A stretch of DNA of 64,000 bases, taken from assembly GCA_964291405.2 (NCBI GenBank), contig OZ219926.1:3904001-3968000 (forward strand). The letters are read 5' to 3'. Below are positions 20,247 through 25,239 of this stretch, one piece after another. A program made the position numbers and the translations under genes. Source of the DNA: Thermodesulfobacteriota bacterium. Its GTDB lineage: Bacteria; Desulfobacterota; Binatia; Bin18. The notes below the pieces were generated by a model. The model was not told the DNA's origin and did no database searches. It saw nothing but the letters and a program-made list of their open reading frames with translations. Every line of letters starts with the position of its first letter. Position 1 is the stretch's first letter.

Positions 20247-22064
20247 CTAGGCCGTGCACTCGCCTTCGCCGCGTTCAAGTTTATAGACCCGATTCTGGTT
20301 CCAATCGATAAACTCGTGTATATGCTCATCGTCAAATGTCACCGGAAGTGATAGATCTGTGATCAGGTTCTCAAATGAGTCGGCTCCCACACGCTCGACG
20401 AAGGCAGCGAACGCCTCGCCCGCACGACGATACGTCTGATAATACTGGACGAATCGTTCGACCGCCTCGGGGACCCGTTTGGACGGAACACGGACATCCA
20501 GGCGTTGACCCATAAGGACCTGGCCTCCATCGTATTGGCCGCCCAGCATGACGATATAGGCCGGGACCTGATGCTTGTCGAACTTCATGGCCGCACCGTA
20601 AAAGCCGATATCGGCAATATGGTGGCGTCCACAGCCGTTGGGACAGCCACTGATCTTGATATGGATTTTTTTGGTGAGCGAATCATCGATGGCGAGGGCT
20701 TCAGCTCGCCGTTGGATTGCCTGCGCCAGACCCATGGAGTTCGTAATGCCGAGCTTGCAACTGTCAGTCCCAGGACAACTCACGACGTCATTGATCTGAT
20801 GCGCCCCGGCATCGCCCAGACCGATTGCCTGCAAGCGCCTCCACACATCATACAAGCTCTCGTTCCGAACCCAACGCAGCACCACGTTCTGTTCGTCCGA
20901 TGTCCGCGCGTGGCCTCCGGTGAACTCGCGCATGATCTGCGCCACACCGCGGAACTGTTCCGGCGTCAGATTCCCCTGAGCGATCTTCACTGCTGCGGTC
21001 GAAAAGCCATCCTGGCGTTGCGGCTGCACATTGGCTGCGGCCCAGCGGGCGAACTCCTGATGGTCGCCGTTCGGGCTGCCGGGATTGATGGGCGCACGCG
21101 GGGCTCGCTCTCCTTCGTTGTCATTCCATTGCAGGGGCTCGGGGTCAAAGTTGCGCTCGTTGACCCAGTCGCCTCGCATTTCCGCATCAACGAGCGCGCG
21201 AAACGCCTCCAGGCCAATCCGGTCGATAAAGAATTTGATCCGGGCGCGGGCGCGGTTTTTGCGCAACTCGTCTTGTCGGTCAAAAATGCGGATAACCGCT
21301 TCCGCGACTCTGAGATAGTCGTTGAGCCCAACAAAGTTGTACAACACGCGACCCACCCTGGGCAGAATCGATGTCCCCCCGCCAGTATAGACGCGAAAGC
21401 CCTTGCAGTTGTCTTTGAGGCGAGGAATAAAGCCTAGGTCGTGGATACCCGTCACTGCACGGTCTTTCTCGGTACTGGAGAAGGCGATCTTGAATTTTCG
21501 GGGAAGAGCCTGAGTCAGTTCGTTCCGAATAAAATAGCGGACCAGTACGCCCACGTATGGGGTAGGGTCAAATGTTTCGTCCGGGTCGACACCGGCAAAG
21601 GGATCACACACCACATTCCGGACCGTATTGCCGCACGCCTCCCGCGTCGACAAACCGGCGTCACCAAGCCTTCGCAGTATCCGTGCGGCTTCCAACAGTG
21701 GAATGAAATGGAACTGGACATTTTGCCGGGTCGTGATGTGGCCTTTTTTGAGCGGTGCATAGGTTTCGGCGATCTCGGCAAAGGTGTCGAACTGATCCGG
21801 CGTGAATCCACCAAAGGGGAGCTTGACCCGGATCATCTGGACGTCCGGCTGCCGTTGTCCATAGACGCCCTGGCGGAGCCGGAAACCCATAAATGTCTGA
21901 CGGCCTGTCTCTCCATCAAGGAACTTTTGCGCTTCAGCATCAAAATCGTCGAATTCCCTTTCGAGAATGGGGATGACACGGCCGGGAATATGTGGGTGCA
22001 TTTCAGGGTTCTCAAGCGTGCCTACACGTCCCCTCTGGTCGCCTGCTGTCGTAGATGTATTCAT
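20247..22064 (-). CDS. Ferredoxin-type sulfite/nitrite reductase hemoprotein
   Basis: GVYGQR, TTRQNVQ, ACGNTVRN, LPRKFK, siroheme/4Fe-4S motifs CPGTDSC and SGCPNGCG. Confidence 0.9.
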   Translation of the reverse strand: MNTSTTAGDQRGRVGTLENPEMHPHIPGRVIPILEREFDDFDAEAQKFLDGETGRQTFMGFRLRQGVYGQRQPDVQMIRVKLPFGGFTPDQFDTFAEIAETYAPLKKGHITTRQNVQFHFIPLLEAARILRRLGDAGLSTREACGNTVRNVVCDPFAGVDPDETFDPTPYVGVLVRYFIRNELTQALPRKFKIAFSSTEKDRAVTGIHDLGFIPRLKDNCKGFRVYTGGGTSILPRVGRVLYNFVGLNDYLRVAEAVIRIFDRQDELRKNRARARIKFFIDRIGLEAFRALVDAEMRGDWVNERNFDPEPLQWNDNEGERAPRAPINPGSPNGDHQEFARWAAANVQPQRQDGFSTAAVKIAQGNLTPEQFRGVAQIMREFTGGHARTSDEQNVVLRWVRNESLYDVWRRLQAIGLGDAGAHQINDVVSCPGTDSCKLGITNSMGLAQAIQRRAEALAIDDSLTKKIHIKISGCPNGCGRHHIADIGFYGAAMKFDKHQVPAYIVMLGGQYDGGQVLMGQRLDVRVPSKRVPEAVERFVQYYQTYRRAGEAFAAFVERVGADSFENLITDLSLPVTFDDEHIHEFIDWNQNRVYKLERGEGECTA

Positions 22065-22252: not shown

Positions 22253-22717
22253 ATGAAAATCTCGAAGAAAAGCGAATATGCTCTCAGAGCACTTGCCTGC
22301 CTGGGGGCGCCGGGTGCCCCTGAGGTGTTGTCTATTCAGGAGATTGCCCGTCGAGAGCGCATTCCCAAGAAGTTTCTGGAACAAGTGCTGCTCGCCCTCA
22401 AGCGAGTAGGGCTTGTCCAGAGTACGCGTGGCAAGGCCGGAGGGTATACCTTATCAGGCGACCCGCAGGCCATTTCATTACAGACGGTTGTCTGGGCGGT
22501 GGACGGTCCACTGGCCCTCTTACCCTGTGTAGCCGACGCAAACCCGGTCAAATGTGCGGACTGTGCCACTCTCGAATATTGCTGGCTGCGCGGTATTATG
22601 CTGGAAGTCGGTGAGTCCATCGCCGCCGCCTTTGCTCGAGTGAGTGTGGCGGAGATGTGTCAACGGGCGGAAGCCAGTCGCCGCCACGAGTCGCACGTGC
22701 CGATGTATGATATCTAG
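22253..22717 (+). CDS. Rrf2 family transcriptional regulator (CymR/IscR-like, Cys-rich C-terminus)
   Basis: KKSEYALRAL, FLEQVL..LK..GLV.S.RG..GGY.L, C...C..C.....C. Confidence 0.92.
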   Translation: MKISKKSEYALRALACLGAPGAPEVLSIQEIARRERIPKKFLEQVLLALKRVGLVQSTRGKAGGYTLSGDPQAISLQTVVWAVDGPLALLPCVADANPVKCADCATLEYCWLRGIMLEVGESIAAAFARVSVAEMCQRAEASRRHESHVPMYDI

Positions 22718-22759
22718 AGACGCGGTTGGGAGAGGTGCCCGCTCGCTGGACAGAAAGGC

Positions 22760-22788
22760 TTGACGTAGACCCGCAGTCTTTTTAGGGT
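22760..22788 (+). promoter_or_regulatory. Sigma70-like promoter for the GST gene
   Basis: TTGACG (22760-22765), 17 nt, TAGGGT (22783-22788). Confidence 0.45.
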
Positions 22789-22832
22789 CAGTATGTAAAG
22801 AGATTTGCGCGCAATACGAAGAGGAGCCCGGT

Positions 22833-23456
22833 ATGACTATCAAGAGAAAGCTGTTCGACTATCTGCCTTGACCGTTCGCCATGAGGACAAGGATTGTTCT
22901 CAAAGAAAAGGCGCTCGACTTTGATCGCATTCTGATCGACCTGCCGAGCAAAGAACAAAAAGAGCCGTGGTTTCTTTCGATTAACCCGTATGGGAAGGTT
23001 CCGGTGCTTACCGAAGAAGGTGCCTGGGTTTACGAGTCGGCCATCTGTAACGAGTATTTAGAAGACAAATACCCCACGCCGGCACTCTCCCCGTCGGCGC
23101 CGGCCGCCAAGGCTGAAATGCGGCTGCTCATCGAACTGTGTAACAGCCAGTTCGTGCCGCCGATTATCCGTCTGCTCTACACCAGCCGGAAACCCAAAGC
23201 CGAGCAAGACCCGGCACGCATGGCCCGGAATACCGACCAGCTCAACGCGCTCTTTCCGCAACTCGAAGAACAGCTCCAGAATCAAGACTATCTCATGGGC
23301 GACTATAGCCTGGCCGATCTTACCTTTACCCCGTTTCTTGGGTTGTGTGACAAATTAGGCATCGACCTCAGTCCATTTCCACACGTCGCGGCCTGGGCCG
23401 AGCGGTTGAAGAGCCGGCCGAGTTACGAAGAGGTCCGGATTGGTCTGACCGGTTAG
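22833..23456 (+). CDS. Glutathione S-transferase, probable selenoprotein (Sec at codon 13)
   Basis: RBS GAGGAG 22821-22826; MTIKRKLFDYLP-TGA-PFAMRTRIVLKEK in frame with the 22881 ORF; NPYGKVPVL, YESAICNEYL, YSLAD GST motifs. Confidence 0.85.
22872..22902 (+). promoter_or_regulatory. Candidate bacterial SECIS hairpin
   Basis: Stem tgaggacaa (22882-22890) / ttgttctca (22894-22902) with one G-U pair; G-containing apical loop 18-19 nt after the TGA. Confidence 0.7.
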
Positions 23457-23619
23457 CCCACTTCTCCCTCTTTTTCTCGGGCGGCACATCTCGGGAGCGG
23501 TGGAGCCGCCGTCCCTGTGGGCGTGGGGGCGTGGTGCGAAGCCGGGCTGGATTTTTCCTGCTGCCTCGCCGGGAGCAAGCGCTACGAAAGCCGAGCGAAC
23601 TCCGGAACACAGAGTCCGA

Positions 23620-25239
23620 ATGAAAAAACGGGTTATCATCAGCATGGCGACACGTCTGGTCTGGGGAGTCTGTCTGCCGCTGCTCTTTTGCCTCGCTCCT
23701 GCCTCTGCTCAACCCGCTAAGGTGTTTGTGAACTCGGCCGTACTCGCCATCGGTGAACGGCCCGTCCTGCTGGACCTCAAAAGCCAGCGTATTATCAGCC
23801 GTGGCGAGAATTTTGAGCCCGACCTGAGTCCCCGCCCCGGAGCCGAGCCGCGGAAGGTGTCAGAATTTCGTTACGTACTCTTCCGAGACTTGGAGAAGGG
23901 CCGCGTGCGCTATGAGTGGGAGCGTACGCTGGTCTATCCCTTCCAGGAAACCTGGGCCTACACCGAGATCATGAACGGACTCGACGGAGCCATACTCGGC
24001 TGCGACGGCTTTGAGAGTCCCTGCCGCCGGGCCATGTCGGCCTCCCGTATTGCCGCCCGCCACAAAGAGCTGCGGCGCTCGCCCGTCTCCATCCTGATTC
24101 ATGCCCTGAGTCGTGCGGGTTCTTTTCTGCGTCTGATGGATCAAACGATTCATGGCCGCCGCCAGGTGGTTGTCTCGTTTAATGACAATACCCAACTTGT
24201 TCTGTTAGCCATCGACTCGGAAACACGCCTGCTGACCAAGGTCGTCTTTGTCGAAGACGACCCCTTGTACGGCGATGTGCAGAACGAGGTGTTTTTTTCT
24301 GACTGGCGCCAAGTCGGGAAGCTCAAACTCCCGTTCGAGCGCATCTATCGGGTCGACGGCCAGACCATCATGGTCGAACACGTTGAAGCCATTCAGAACG
24401 ATGTCGACCTGTCGCGCGTCGACTTTACCATTCCGGAAGAGATCGAGCACCCGGAAGAGTGGGACGGAGCGCGCGGAGAGCAGAGTTCGCACTGGGTGCT
24501 GCGTCAGATTGCGCAGGGCCACCCGGTCGATACGCCCGATTCAACGCTCGCGTTGCGTGACTTGGCCCCAGGCGTGATGCACATTGTCGGGGGCAGATAT
24601 CAGAGCCTGGCGGTTGAGATGGGTGAGTACCTGATTGTGGTTGAGGCCCCCCAGGACGACACGCACTCACGCGCCGTGCTGGACACCTTACGTCAGCGAT
24701 TTCCAACCAAGCCGGTCCGTTTTGTCGTGAATACCCATTTTCATAGCGAGCACGCGGGGGGACTGCGGACCTATGTGGCTGCCGATACCATTGTGGTGAC
24801 CAGTGCGTTGAACGTTCCACTCTTCCAGGATGTCTTTCGCGCTCTGCACACCCAAGTCCCGGACAGCCTCCAGCGTCGCCCGAGAATTGCGGTGATTGAA
24901 GCGGTCAGGAATGAACGCAAGTTTTTCGTGGATGAAAATCGGGTGGTGATTGTCTACCCGATTGAGACCGTTCATGTAGACGGCATGTTGATCGTCTATC
25001 TGCCTGAGGAACGCCTGCTTTTTGTGGCCGACCTGTTTACGCCGGGAGCCGTCCGACAGGTTGCCGATTGGGCTCGGGACCTCCTCAACGCCATTGAGAG
25101 CTACGACCTCGCAGTCGAGAGCATTGTCGGCAGCCGGGGAGGAGTCGGGACGCTGGATGAGTTGCGCCGCGTTGTTCGTGATCAGAATCGGTTGAGCCAA
25201 GAACGTGGGCCGCTACGAGCCACCGAAGATGACAGTTGA
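23620..25239 (+). CDS. Exported protein with C-terminal metallo-beta-lactamase-like domain (degenerate metal site)
   Basis: Signal peptide ...LAPASA; NTHFHSEHAGG, HVDGML, FVADLF; start uncertain (23620 or 23644). Confidence 0.75.
   Translation: MKKRVIISMATRLVWGVCLPLLFCLAPASAQPAKVFVNSAVLAIGERPVLLDLKSQRIISRGENFEPDLSPRPGAEPRKVSEFRYVLFRDLEKGRVRYEWERTLVYPFQETWAYTEIMNGLDGAILGCDGFESPCRRAMSASRIAARHKELRRSPVSILIHALSRAGSFLRLMDQTIHGRRQVVVSFNDNTQLVLLAIDSETRLLTKVVFVEDDPLYGDVQNEVFFSDWRQVGKLKLPFERIYRVDGQTIMVEHVEAIQNDVDLSRVDFTIPEEIEHPEEWDGARGEQSSHWVLRQIAQGHPVDTPDSTLALRDLAPGVMHIVGGRYQSLAVEMGEYLIVVEAPQDDTHSRAVLDTLRQRFPTKPVRFVVNTHFHSEHAGGLRTYVAADTIVVTSALNVPLFQDVFRALHTQVPDSLQRRPRIAVIEAVRNERKFFVDENRVVIVYPIETVHVDGMLIVYLPEERLLFVADLFTPGAVRQVADWARDLLNAIESYDLAVESIVGSRGGVGTLDELRRVVRDQNRLSQERGPLRATEDDS

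What the first reader, a model, noticed from the sequence alone, without database searches (positions are those of the whole stretch)
22821..23456. Hidden selenoprotein: glutathione S-transferase with U-P-F active site and SECIS-like hairpin
Seen in the sequence: a strong RBS (GAGGAG) precedes ATG 22833. The frame MTIKRKLFDYLP-TGA-PFAMRTR runs straight into the 191-aa GST ORF, which alone lacks the first beta strand of the fold. The TGA (22869-22871) sits where Cys-type GSTs have their CPF/CPY catalytic Cys. A 9-bp hairpin with a G-containing loop follows 18-19 nt later. Established: bacterial SECIS elements lie immediately 3' of the UGA, and Sec replaces catalytic Cys. Sec-GSTs are rare and known mostly from predictions. 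Inference: this encodes a 207-aa selenoenzyme that standard pipelines truncate.
Basis: partly seen in the sequence, partly recalled or inferred. Interest (0 to 1): 0.85.

Follow-up and report, generated by a model that had tools for sequence, protein, structure and literature searches.

The report
Selenocysteine glutathione transferase gene, annotated short
This is a real gene for a glutathione-transferase-type enzyme whose catalytic cysteine is replaced by selenocysteine, written as a TGA "stop" that gene callers misread; the type has been predicted since 2005, so the find is sound but ordinary.

Summary
ATG 22833 follows a GAGGAG Shine-Dalgarno site and opens a 207-codon frame with one in-frame TGA (22869-22871). 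That frame runs into the 191-aa GST ORF.

The selenocysteine reading is strongly supported:
- The TGA is invariant in 45 of 45 distinct orthologous sequences from Candidatus Binatia assemblies.
- The codons before it vary synonymously, so they are translated.
- One nested ortholog and all 31 members of the sister clade have Cys there (CPF motif).
- The site aligns with Cys32 of human GSTO1.
- An 8-9 bp hairpin (22882-22902, loop AGGAU) meets all four published bacterial SECIS criteria and shows compensatory changes at wobble positions.
- selA, selB, selD and tRNA-Sec are in the genome.
- A confident AlphaFold model puts strand beta-1 upstream of the TGA and Sec13 at the start of helix alpha-1.

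It is not new in kind. GST selenoproteins were predicted from the Sargasso Sea (2005) and GOS (2008) and are listed in the 2022 and 2026 reviews. This scan has reported the same thing on other DNA, including Binatia (e1-1117580, e1-4510551).

What remains is an annotation correction (98 of 120 listed database homologs start at the internal Met) and a conserved neighbourhood of unknown meaning. Selenium incorporation and enzyme activity are untested.

The parts
22821..22826 (+). Shine-Dalgarno site GAGGAG, 6 nt before the true start
   Evidence: Read directly. A purine-rich GGAG-type site sits before the upstream ATG in the orthologs printed. Nothing comparable precedes the internal ATG 22881.
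22833..23456 (+). Full coding sequence of the Sec-containing GST (207 residues plus TAG stop)
   Evidence: Translation with TGA read through. Pfam GST_N_3 matches residues 7-83 from profile position 1, and GST_C matches 109-196. The AlphaFold2 model has pLDDT 93.9. Foldseek TM is 0.85 to solved GSTs.
22869..22871 (+). UGA selenocysteine codon (residue 13, motif U-P-F-A)
   Evidence: TGA in 45 of 45 distinct ortholog sequences, never TAA or TAG. Cys is aligned here in L072/P0014 and in 31 of 31 sister-clade loci. It aligns with Cys32 of human GSTO1, PDB 1eem.
22881..22883 (+). Internal Met codon that gene callers take as the start (Met17)
   Evidence: Start of the 191-aa ORF. 98 of 120 listed database homologs begin MRTRI. 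One ortholog (L037) has Gln here.
22882..22902 (+). Bacterial SECIS hairpin: 8 bp stem plus AGGAU loop (or 9 bp plus GGA)
   Evidence: -9.0 kcal/mol, z = -3.65. 98.0% of 344 cells are paired across 43 sequences, 2 of 8 pairs have compensatory changes, and 0 of 500 shuffles reach the score. The loop codon AGG is invariant in 45 of 45 sequences, while other Arg codons vary.
22253..22717 (+). Upstream Rrf2-family regulator gene (context, not part of the gene)
   Evidence: Pfam Rrf2, 1.7e-32. Present upstream in 30 of 49 Sec-clade loci and 0 of 31 Cys-clade loci.
23620..25239 (+). Downstream metallo-beta-lactamase-fold gene with a signal-peptide-like N-terminus (conserved neighbour, function unknown)
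   Evidence: Pfam Lactamase_B, 4.5e-10. Present downstream in 45 of 49 Sec-clade loci and 0 of 31 Cys-clade loci. All NCBIfam hits are far below cut-off.

Best explanation
Window 22833-23456 (+) is one gene for a 207-residue cytosolic-type glutathione transferase. Its catalytic residue is selenocysteine, encoded by UGA 22869-22871. During translation, SelB carrying Sec-tRNA(Sec) is recruited by the mRNA hairpin at 22882-22902, which lies inside the coding sequence and also encodes M-R-T-R-I-V-L. Sec is therefore inserted instead of terminating. The product has the complete thioredoxin-like N-domain and helical C-domain. Sec13 sits at the N-terminus of helix alpha-1 in a U-P-F-A motif, the position of the catalytic Cys in Cys-type GSTs (omega, DHAR, lambda). 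By inference, it works as Cys-type GSTs do: the selenolate attacks a glutathionyl mixed disulfide or a similar electrophile, forms an enzyme-Se-SG intermediate in the G-site, and a second GSH releases it. Sec would give a lower pKa and higher nucleophilicity. The recoding signals and the fold are shown. The chemistry and the substrate are inferred.
For: (1) Frame and fold. Pfam GST N-domain models align from residue 6-7, upstream of the TGA. The AlphaFold2 model (pLDDT 93.9, pTM 0.89) places beta-1 at residues 6-9 and alpha-1 at 14-25. Foldseek gives TM 0.85 to solved GSTs.
(2) Conserved TGA. Among 61 related genomes, 36 hold an ortholog at 63% identity or more. Of these, 35 have exactly one in-frame TGA, and the 36th is cut by a contig end before the site. 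In the GTDB species set, 46 of 47 Sec-clade loci with the site visible have TGA and 1 has Cys. TGA is present in 45 of 45 distinct sequences.
(3) The upstream peptide is translated. Codons -8 to -1 keep R-K-L-F-D-Y-L-P/A while using up to 5 Arg and 6 Leu codons. All 8 third positions vary, against 1 second position.
(4) Sec/Cys pairing. P0014/L072 read LFDYLACPFAMRTR. The sister clade is 31 of 31 Cys. In the tree, the Sec clade is separated by a 100/100 branch, and L072 is nested as sister to a Sec row with 100/88 support. U13 aligns with Cys32 of GSTO1 1eem.
(5) SECIS. The element meets the four criteria quoted in PMC13188914 Fig. 2: loop AGGAU of 5 nt, stem of 8 bp, G at loop position 2 with the N1-G-G-N-N2 pattern, 18 nt from UGA to the loop, and -9.0 kcal/mol. 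Pair 24-30 is GC in 31 and AU in 12 sequences with none unpaired. Pair 21-33 is AU 24, GU 11, GC 6, other 2. In-register pairing is 4.5 of 8 in the 31 Cys-clade loci, against 8 of 8 here.
(6) Machinery. SelA scores 524.7 bits, the SelB wing domain 79.9 bits, SelD 308 bits, and tRNA-SeC (tca) lies beside selA.
(7) One 249-nt contig of an RNA library covers 22795-23042 across the TGA, with no difference listed at the codon. A 2345-nt DNA contig also bridges it.
Against: There is no direct evidence of selenium in the protein. No Rfam family matched the hairpin: 2 chance-level hits elsewhere, E 5.3 and 8.2. The wider 81-nt fold is not more stable than shuffles (z = -0.77). Some Cys-clade sequences also fold into other hairpins of similar energy (mean -9.5 kcal/mol), so stability alone does not discriminate. 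Two Sec-clade sequences (L084, L106) have a G-G mismatch in the stem. The hairpin lies in a conserved coding stretch, so part of its conservation reflects protein constraint. The related sequences are kin, so shuffle counts overstate independence. The RNA-library contig does not prove transcription, because DNA can be present in such libraries. The activity and substrate are inferred only from similarity to Cys-type GSTs at 25-30% identity.
Confidence: 0.92

Rival explanations
1. The TGA is a true stop. A 12-codon upstream ORF ends there, and the real product is the 191-aa protein from ATG 22881, as public annotation has it.
For: Table 11 gives this ORF. 98 of 120 listed database homologs are called this way.
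Against: The 191-aa form lacks beta-1 and the catalytic residue. No Shine-Dalgarno site precedes ATG 22881. The three codons between the TGA and the ATG (P-F/Y-A) are under protein-level constraint with synonymous variation. In L037 the internal Met is Gln. The stop is never TAA or TAG in 45 sequences. Cys-form homologs are continuous through the site.
Confidence: 0.03
2. The UGA is read through, but by a standard amino acid (near-cognate Cys or Trp, or a local code change) and not by selenocysteine.
For: Nothing specific. It cannot be excluded without protein chemistry.
Against: A complete Sec machinery is present. A covarying hairpin matching the SECIS model lies at the right distance. The aligned residue in relatives is Cys, the usual Sec partner. 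The MAG-completeness estimate of 97.5% was obtained without any code change.
Confidence: 0.03
3. The gene is a pseudogene inactivated by a nonsense mutation, or the TGA is an assembly error.
For: A single window cannot exclude it. One relative (L106) has a second in-frame TGA and may be damaged.
Against: The same TGA occurs in 35 genomes of at least two families and in 46 of 47 public loci, with purifying selection on both sides. A separate public DNA contig carries it.
Confidence: 0.01

Closest known systems
GST / GST-like prokaryotic selenoprotein family (Zhang, Fomenko & Gladyshev 2005, Sargasso Sea, PMC1088965; GOS 2008, PMC2398784; reviews PMC9312934 and PMC13188914)
   Same: GST-domain protein (COG0625 / PF13409) with a single Sec and no UxxC/CxxU motif. 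It was predicted by Sec/Cys pairing plus a bacterial SECIS and is biochemically uncharacterised. I saw tables and passages only.
   Different: The catalogued examples are from marine metagenomes: 4 sequences in 2005 and 12 in 2008. This one belongs to a large Candidatus Binatia branch. I could not see where Sec lies in the catalogued sequences, because supplements are closed and accessions cannot be fetched, so orthology is untested.
Omega-class GST (human GSTO1, PDB 1eem) and other Cys-type GSTs (DHAR, lambda)
   Same: The catalytic residue is at the N-terminus of alpha-1 in a C/U-P-F-A-x-R-T-R-hydrophobic-V-L-K motif. U13 aligns with Cys32. The V-P and E-S G-site motifs are conserved.
   Different: Whole-protein E-value is only about 1e-19. 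Query residue 7 aligns with GSTO1 residue 26, so the omega N-terminal extension is absent. The residue is Sec, not Cys. That Cys32 is the catalytic residue is recalled knowledge, not a result of any call.
Burkholderia 'stringent starvation protein A'-named GST homologs (PDB 6v91, 4qq7)
   Same: These are the best PDB sequence matches (E 1.5e-26 and 1.9e-26), also with a CPFS motif at the aligned site. 4qq7 was solved with bound glutathione.
   Different: They carry Cys, not Sec. About 30% identity. They are named after a transcription-associated protein, and there is no evidence here for such a role.
Escherichia coli fdhF-type bacterial SECIS
   Same: A hairpin inside the coding sequence just 3' of the UGA, with a G in the apical loop, read by SelB. 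The consensus criteria are quoted.
   Different: No sequence similarity, and no Rfam model matches. This one has a short perfect 8-9 bp stem without the bulged U; the bulged U is recalled, not from a call.

Membership tests
Bacterial selenoprotein gene (SelB/SECIS-dependent UGA recoding) | In-frame UGA aligned with Cys in homologs (Sec/Cys pair) | tested here: met
   L072/P0014 have Cys at the site. All 31 sister-clade loci have Cys.
Bacterial selenoprotein gene (SelB/SECIS-dependent UGA recoding) | bSECIS consensus: 3-9 nt apical loop, 4-16 bp stem, G in the first two loop positions, 16-37 nt from UGA to loop, MFE at or below -7.5 kcal/mol (PMC13188914 Fig. 2) | tested here: met
   Loop AGGAU (5 nt), 8 bp stem, G at loop position 2, 18 nt spacing, -9.0 kcal/mol. 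Covariation in 2 of 8 pairs.
Bacterial selenoprotein gene (SelB/SECIS-dependent UGA recoding) | selA, selB, selD and tRNA-Sec present in the genome | tested here: met
   All protein matches are above the curated cut-offs, and tRNA-SeC (tca) lies next to selA.
Bacterial selenoprotein gene (SelB/SECIS-dependent UGA recoding) | TGA-containing orthologs in other organisms, with coding conservation on both sides | tested here: met
   35 genomes. 46 of 47 loci. Synonymous variation upstream and downstream of the TGA.
Bacterial selenoprotein gene (SelB/SECIS-dependent UGA recoding) | Selenium actually incorporated at the UGA | not testable with these tools
   Needs 75Se labelling or mass spectrometry.
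GST-like selenoprotein family (Sargasso/GOS catalogue) | GST N- and C-terminal domains (COG0625 / PF13409) | tested here: met
   PF13409 at 2.4e-19, starting at residue 13. PF00043 at 5.4e-12.
GST-like selenoprotein family (Sargasso/GOS catalogue) | One Sec, no UxxC/CxxU redox motif (the reviews list the motif as '-') | tested here: met
   The motif is U-P-F-A with no second Cys within the xx spacing. The review table entries were seen.
GST-like selenoprotein family (Sargasso/GOS catalogue) | Sequence orthology, and the same Sec position, as the catalogued marine representatives | not tested
   The representative accessions named in the reviews could not be fetched, and the alignments are in figures or supplements that I could not see.
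Omega-class GST | Catalytic Cys in a CPF motif at the start of alpha-1 | tested here: met
   U13 aligns with Cys32 of 1eem. The model has alpha-1 at 14-25. The residue is Sec in place of Cys.
Omega-class GST | Class-specific N-terminal extension of about 20 residues, and class-level sequence identity | tested here: not met
   Query residue 7 aligns with GSTO1 residue 26, and the protein has only 5 residues before beta-1. Whole-protein E-value to GSTO1 is about 1e-19; best PDB sequence hit is 1.5e-26. It works like an omega/Cys-type GST but is not filed as omega class.

The most novel reading that the evidence does not exclude
The Sec-GST is not a stand-alone housekeeping enzyme. It would be the cytoplasmic arm of a Binatia-specific module: an Rrf2-type Fe-S/redox-sensing regulator upstream, the Sec-GST, and a secreted MBL-fold protein downstream, often next to a divergent sulfite/nitrite-reductase-family gene. 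Selenocysteine became fixed in this module early in the clade because it permits a chemistry that the Cys paralogs in the same genomes cannot do, for example peroxidase-like or persulfide/selenide transfer.
Probability: 0.1. Interest if true: 0.5.

Novelty: new member of a known kind. Interest (0 to 1): 0.25.

Why it matters
There are two practical points. First, public protein databases hold this whole Binatia branch as N-terminally truncated 191-aa proteins that lack the active site. 98 of the 120 listed homologs start at the internal Met, so domain, structure and function predictions made from those records are wrong. Second, a natural Sec/Cys pair marks residue 13 as the catalytic nucleophile. 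It also offers a clean system for measuring what Sec adds to a GST scaffold: the Sec orthologs, one recent Sec-to-Cys revertant (L072/P0014) and Cys paralogs in the same genomes. It does not open a new category, because the selenoprotein family has been in the literature since 2005.

Tried and rejected
- Rfam at a permissive threshold on 22780-23000 gave only two chance-level matches (nuoG RNA, E 5.3; eiav_FSE, E 8.2), and neither lies on the hairpin. No curated SECIS family covers this element.
- The MFE fold of 22860-22940 includes an outer stem that pairs the UGA region with 22908-22913. The whole fold is not significant (z = -0.77), and that outer stem is not kept in the orthologs (the sequences differ there). 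I dropped it.
- The sigma-70 promoter scan of 22650-23600 found nothing. A TTGACG-17-TAGGGT seen by eye at 22760-22788 is below the tool's threshold and is not claimed.
- In one search the RNA-library contigs X14 and X16 both begin at 22795, and none of the three RNA libraries covers the Rrf2 gene. X14 and X16 are from one study, and contigs cannot show transcript ends, so I draw no transcription start and no statement on operon structure.
- NCBIfam has no specific model for this protein. All 10 hits are far below their cut-offs.
- The function of the downstream MBL-fold neighbour could not be resolved. PDB hits are E 1.6e-5 or weaker, and all 20 NCBIfam hits are far below cut-off. I do not call it a beta-lactamase.
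- A literature search for 'Binat' plus 'selenocysteine' returned 13 papers. None of the 12 listed titles or abstracts concerns a Binatia GST selenoprotein (listing only).
- Of three further TGA-bearing GST paralogs fetched (L042-L044), my pattern picked up only L043 and L044. L042 was not examined further.

Full report
**1. The observation**

The sequence is as described.
- GAGGAG lies at 22821-22826, and ATG 22833 follows after a 6-nt spacer.
- The frame reads MTIKRKLFDYLP, then TGA at 22869-22871, then PFAMRTR. It continues with no further stop to TAG 23454-23456.
- Reading the TGA through gives 207 residues.
- The table-11 ORF list holds only the 191-aa ORF that starts at ATG 22881.
- The hairpin is at 22882-22902. 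On its own it folds at -9.0 kcal/mol, z = -3.65, and 0 of 200 shuffles fold as well.
- The larger 81-nt fold is unremarkable (z = -0.77).

**2. The N-terminal extension belongs to the protein**

- Pfam GST N-domain models align from residues 6-7, upstream of the TGA: GST_N_3 covers 7-83 from profile position 1, and GST_N covers 6-77. The top model, GST_N_2 (PF13409, 2.4e-19), starts at residue 13. GST_C covers 109-196.
- An AlphaFold2 model was built from a 41-row alignment (A5). It has mean pLDDT 93.9 and pTM 0.89. Strand beta-1 is at residues 6-9, helix alpha-1 is at 14-25, and residue 13 is the N-cap of alpha-1.
- Foldseek finds solved GSTs at TM about 0.85.
- The 191-aa form would lack beta-1 and the catalytic residue.

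**3. Conservation of the TGA**

The genome search with the read-through protein covered 61 genomes: the window's own and 60 relatives.
- 36 genomes have an ortholog at 63% identity or more.
- 35 of those carry exactly one in-frame TGA. This covers all 28 genomes of the genus, the window's own included, plus 7 genomes of other genera, one of them in a second family.
- The 36th ortholog (G030) is cut by a contig end after the site.

A scan of one genome per GTDB species returned 80 loci, and the record titles are mostly Candidatus Binatia MAGs.
- 49 loci belong to the close clade, and 47 of those show the site.
- 46 have TGA and 1 (L072) has TGC.
- The remaining 31 loci, at 42-46% identity, all have Cys in a CPF (once CVF) motif.

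Across 45 distinct 90-nt sequences the codon is always TGA, never TAA or TAG.

**4. Both sides of the TGA are translated**

- Codons -8 to -1 keep R-K-L-F-D-Y-L-(P/A) while using 5 Arg codons (AGA and CGN) and 6 and 5 Leu codons.
- All 8 third positions vary, against 4 first and 1 second positions.
- The three codons between the TGA and the internal ATG (P, F/Y, A) also vary synonymously.
- In one ortholog (L037) the internal Met is Gln, so initiation there is impossible in that genome.
- A purine-rich Shine-Dalgarno site precedes the upstream ATG in the orthologs printed.

**5. Sec/Cys history**

A maximum-likelihood tree was built from 76 rows with the site masked. Four of the 80 loci were left out: L089, L090 and L092 are truncated, and L106 has a second TGA.
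- A 100/100 branch separates a clade of 44 Sec rows plus 1 Cys row from the 31-row Cys clade.
- The one Cys row (L072) is nested, as sister to a Sec row with 100/88 support.
- The simplest reading is one Cys-to-Sec change at the base of the clade and one recent reversion. The direction rests on midpoint rooting only.
- L072 still has 7 of the 8 stem pairs.
- More distant paralogs (about 40% identity, P0114-P0121) have Ser at the site, as Ser-type GSTs do.
- Two other GST paralog groups in the same class also have TGA at this site (L043 reads UPYC, L044 reads UPYAHRTRIVL). L044 has the same AGGAU-loop hairpin.

**6. The hairpin as a SECIS element**

The consensus model quoted in the 2026 review (PMC13188914, Fig. 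2 legend, passage seen) sets four conditions. All four are met.

| Criterion | Here |
|---|---|
| Apical loop of 3-9 nt | AGGAU, 5 nt |
| Stem of 4-16 bp | 8 bp |
| G in the first two loop positions (pattern N1-G-[G/U]-N-N2) | G at position 2, and A/U can pair as N1/N2 |
| 16-37 nt from UGA to the loop | 18 nt |
| MFE at or below -7.5 kcal/mol | -9.0 kcal/mol |

Covariation was counted on 43 distinct Sec-clade sequences.
- 98.0% of 344 cells are paired.
- Pair 24-30 is G-C in 31 sequences and A-U in 12, never unpaired.
- Pair 21-33 is A-U 24, G-U 11, G-C 6, other 2.
- 0 of 500 shuffles reach the observed pairing or covariation score.
- Sliding the 3' partner by 1-3 columns drops pairing to 39-51%.

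The covarying positions are synonymous wobble sites: ACA/ACG with ATT/ATC, and AGA/AGG with GTT/GTC. The loop Arg codon is AGG in 45 of 45 sequences, whereas other Arg codons in the same stretch use 3-5 codons. In the 31 Cys-clade loci the same register pairs only 4.5 of 8 on average.

Caveats:
- The sequences are kin.
- The stretch is also protein-constrained.
- Two sequences have a G-G mismatch.
- Cys-clade mRNAs fold into other structures of similar energy.
- Rfam has no matching family.

**7. Machinery**

The genome (97.5% complete, 3 contigs) has:
- SelA at 524.7 bits.
- A SelB winged-helix domain at 79.9 bits, in a 645-aa frame.
- SelD at 308 bits.
- A tRNA-SeC (tca) about 250 nt from selA.

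Earlier notes of this scan report three other selenoprotein genes in the same genome. I did not re-test them.

**8. Reads**

- 20 public runs in 13 studies hold the stretch or part of it. Several are labelled sponge metagenome.
- One 249-nt contig of a metatranscriptome library covers 22795-23042, bridging the TGA, with no difference listed at the codon.
- A 2345-nt DNA contig bridges it with no differences.
- Contigs of RNA libraries do not prove transcription.

**9. What it probably does**

- The N-terminal 80 residues align with human GSTO1 (1eem). The query 'CPFAMRTRIVLK' lies opposite 'CPFAERTRLVLK', and residue 13 lies opposite Cys32. That Cys32 is the omega-class catalytic nucleophile is recalled knowledge.
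- The V-P (56-57) and E-S (68-69) G-site motifs are conserved in the alignments.
- I therefore infer a Cys-type, thiol-transferase or reductase-like mechanism through an enzyme-Se-SG intermediate.
- It is not an omega-class member. It lacks the N-terminal extension, and its whole-protein E-value to GSTO1 is only about 1e-19.
- The best PDB sequence matches are Burkholderia proteins named SspA, with a CPFS motif (E about 1e-26).

**10. Context**

- An MBL-fold gene follows in 45 of 49 Sec-clade loci.
- An Rrf2-family regulator precedes in 30 of 49.
- A divergent nitrite/sulfite-reductase-family gene is present in 22 of 49.
- None of these occurs at the 31 Cys-clade loci.
- Three of the four loci without the MBL gene are short.
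- The function of this neighbourhood is unknown.

**11. Novelty**

- 'Glutathione S-transferase' is listed among the new selenoprotein families of the Sargasso Sea, with 4 sequences (PMC1088965, tables seen).
- The GOS table lists it with 12 sequences (PMC2398784).
- Both reviews' tables list it as PF13409 or COG0625, with one Sec and no motif. The 2026 review also says that nearly all such families remain uncharacterised (PMC9312934 and PMC13188914).
- This scan has reported Sec-GST genes on at least eight other windows, two of them explicitly Binatia.
- My two literature searches found no paper on the Binatia branch. Supplementary tables that I could not open may list it.

It is a new member of a known kind. 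Its value is an annotation correction, and it gives a natural Sec/Cys comparison set.

Noticed in passing
window 23500-25239 (likely start ATG 23620): A 539-579 aa protein with a signal-peptide-like N-terminus and a C-terminal metallo-beta-lactamase-fold domain (THFHSEH motif). It is conserved immediately downstream of the Sec-GST in 45 of 49 Sec-clade loci and absent from all 31 Cys-clade loci. The roughly 300-residue N-terminal part matches no Pfam family. Its similarity to class B beta-lactamases is far below cut-off.
   Followed up: partly
window 22253-22717 and 20247-22064 (-): An Rrf2-family regulator (weak best matches to IscR, SUF regulator and CymR, all below cut-off) and a divergent NirA/sulfite-reductase-family hemoprotein gene lie upstream of the Sec-GST. 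They are present in 30 and 22 of 49 Sec-clade loci. This hints at a link to sulfur or Fe-S metabolism.
   Followed up: partly
L106 (CBDESS010000002.1), about locus 1501-1560: This ortholog has a second in-frame TGA six codons before the Sec codon (…DRN-TGA-FDYLA-TGA-PF…). It is either a damaged copy or an assembly error.
   Followed up: no
L043 (G037:C15) and L044 (G039:C85): Two further GST paralog groups (37-40% identity) also carry TGA at the catalytic site (motifs UPYC and UPYAHRTRIVL). L044 has the same AGGAU-loop hairpin. Sec at this GST position therefore recurs in several subfamilies of the class.
   Followed up: partly
G000:C3:39564-40481 (own genome, outside the window): The SelD match lies within a 759-aa stop-to-stop frame, which could mean that SelD is fused to another domain.
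   Followed up: no
L061, L062, L069, L070, L072, L078, L081, L085, L092 (record titles): Several public MAG records that carry this Binatia-type gene are titled 'uncultured Enterobacteriaceae' or 'Klebsiella pneumoniae'. In the tree they nest among the Binatia rows. The titles look like mislabels.
   Followed up: no
L094 and L107 (Cys-clade loci), about 17-35 nt after the Cys codon: Two Cys-form genes have an 8-bp hairpin with a 3-nt loop at nearly the same place as the SECIS element of the Sec clade. This may be chance or a relic.
   Followed up: no
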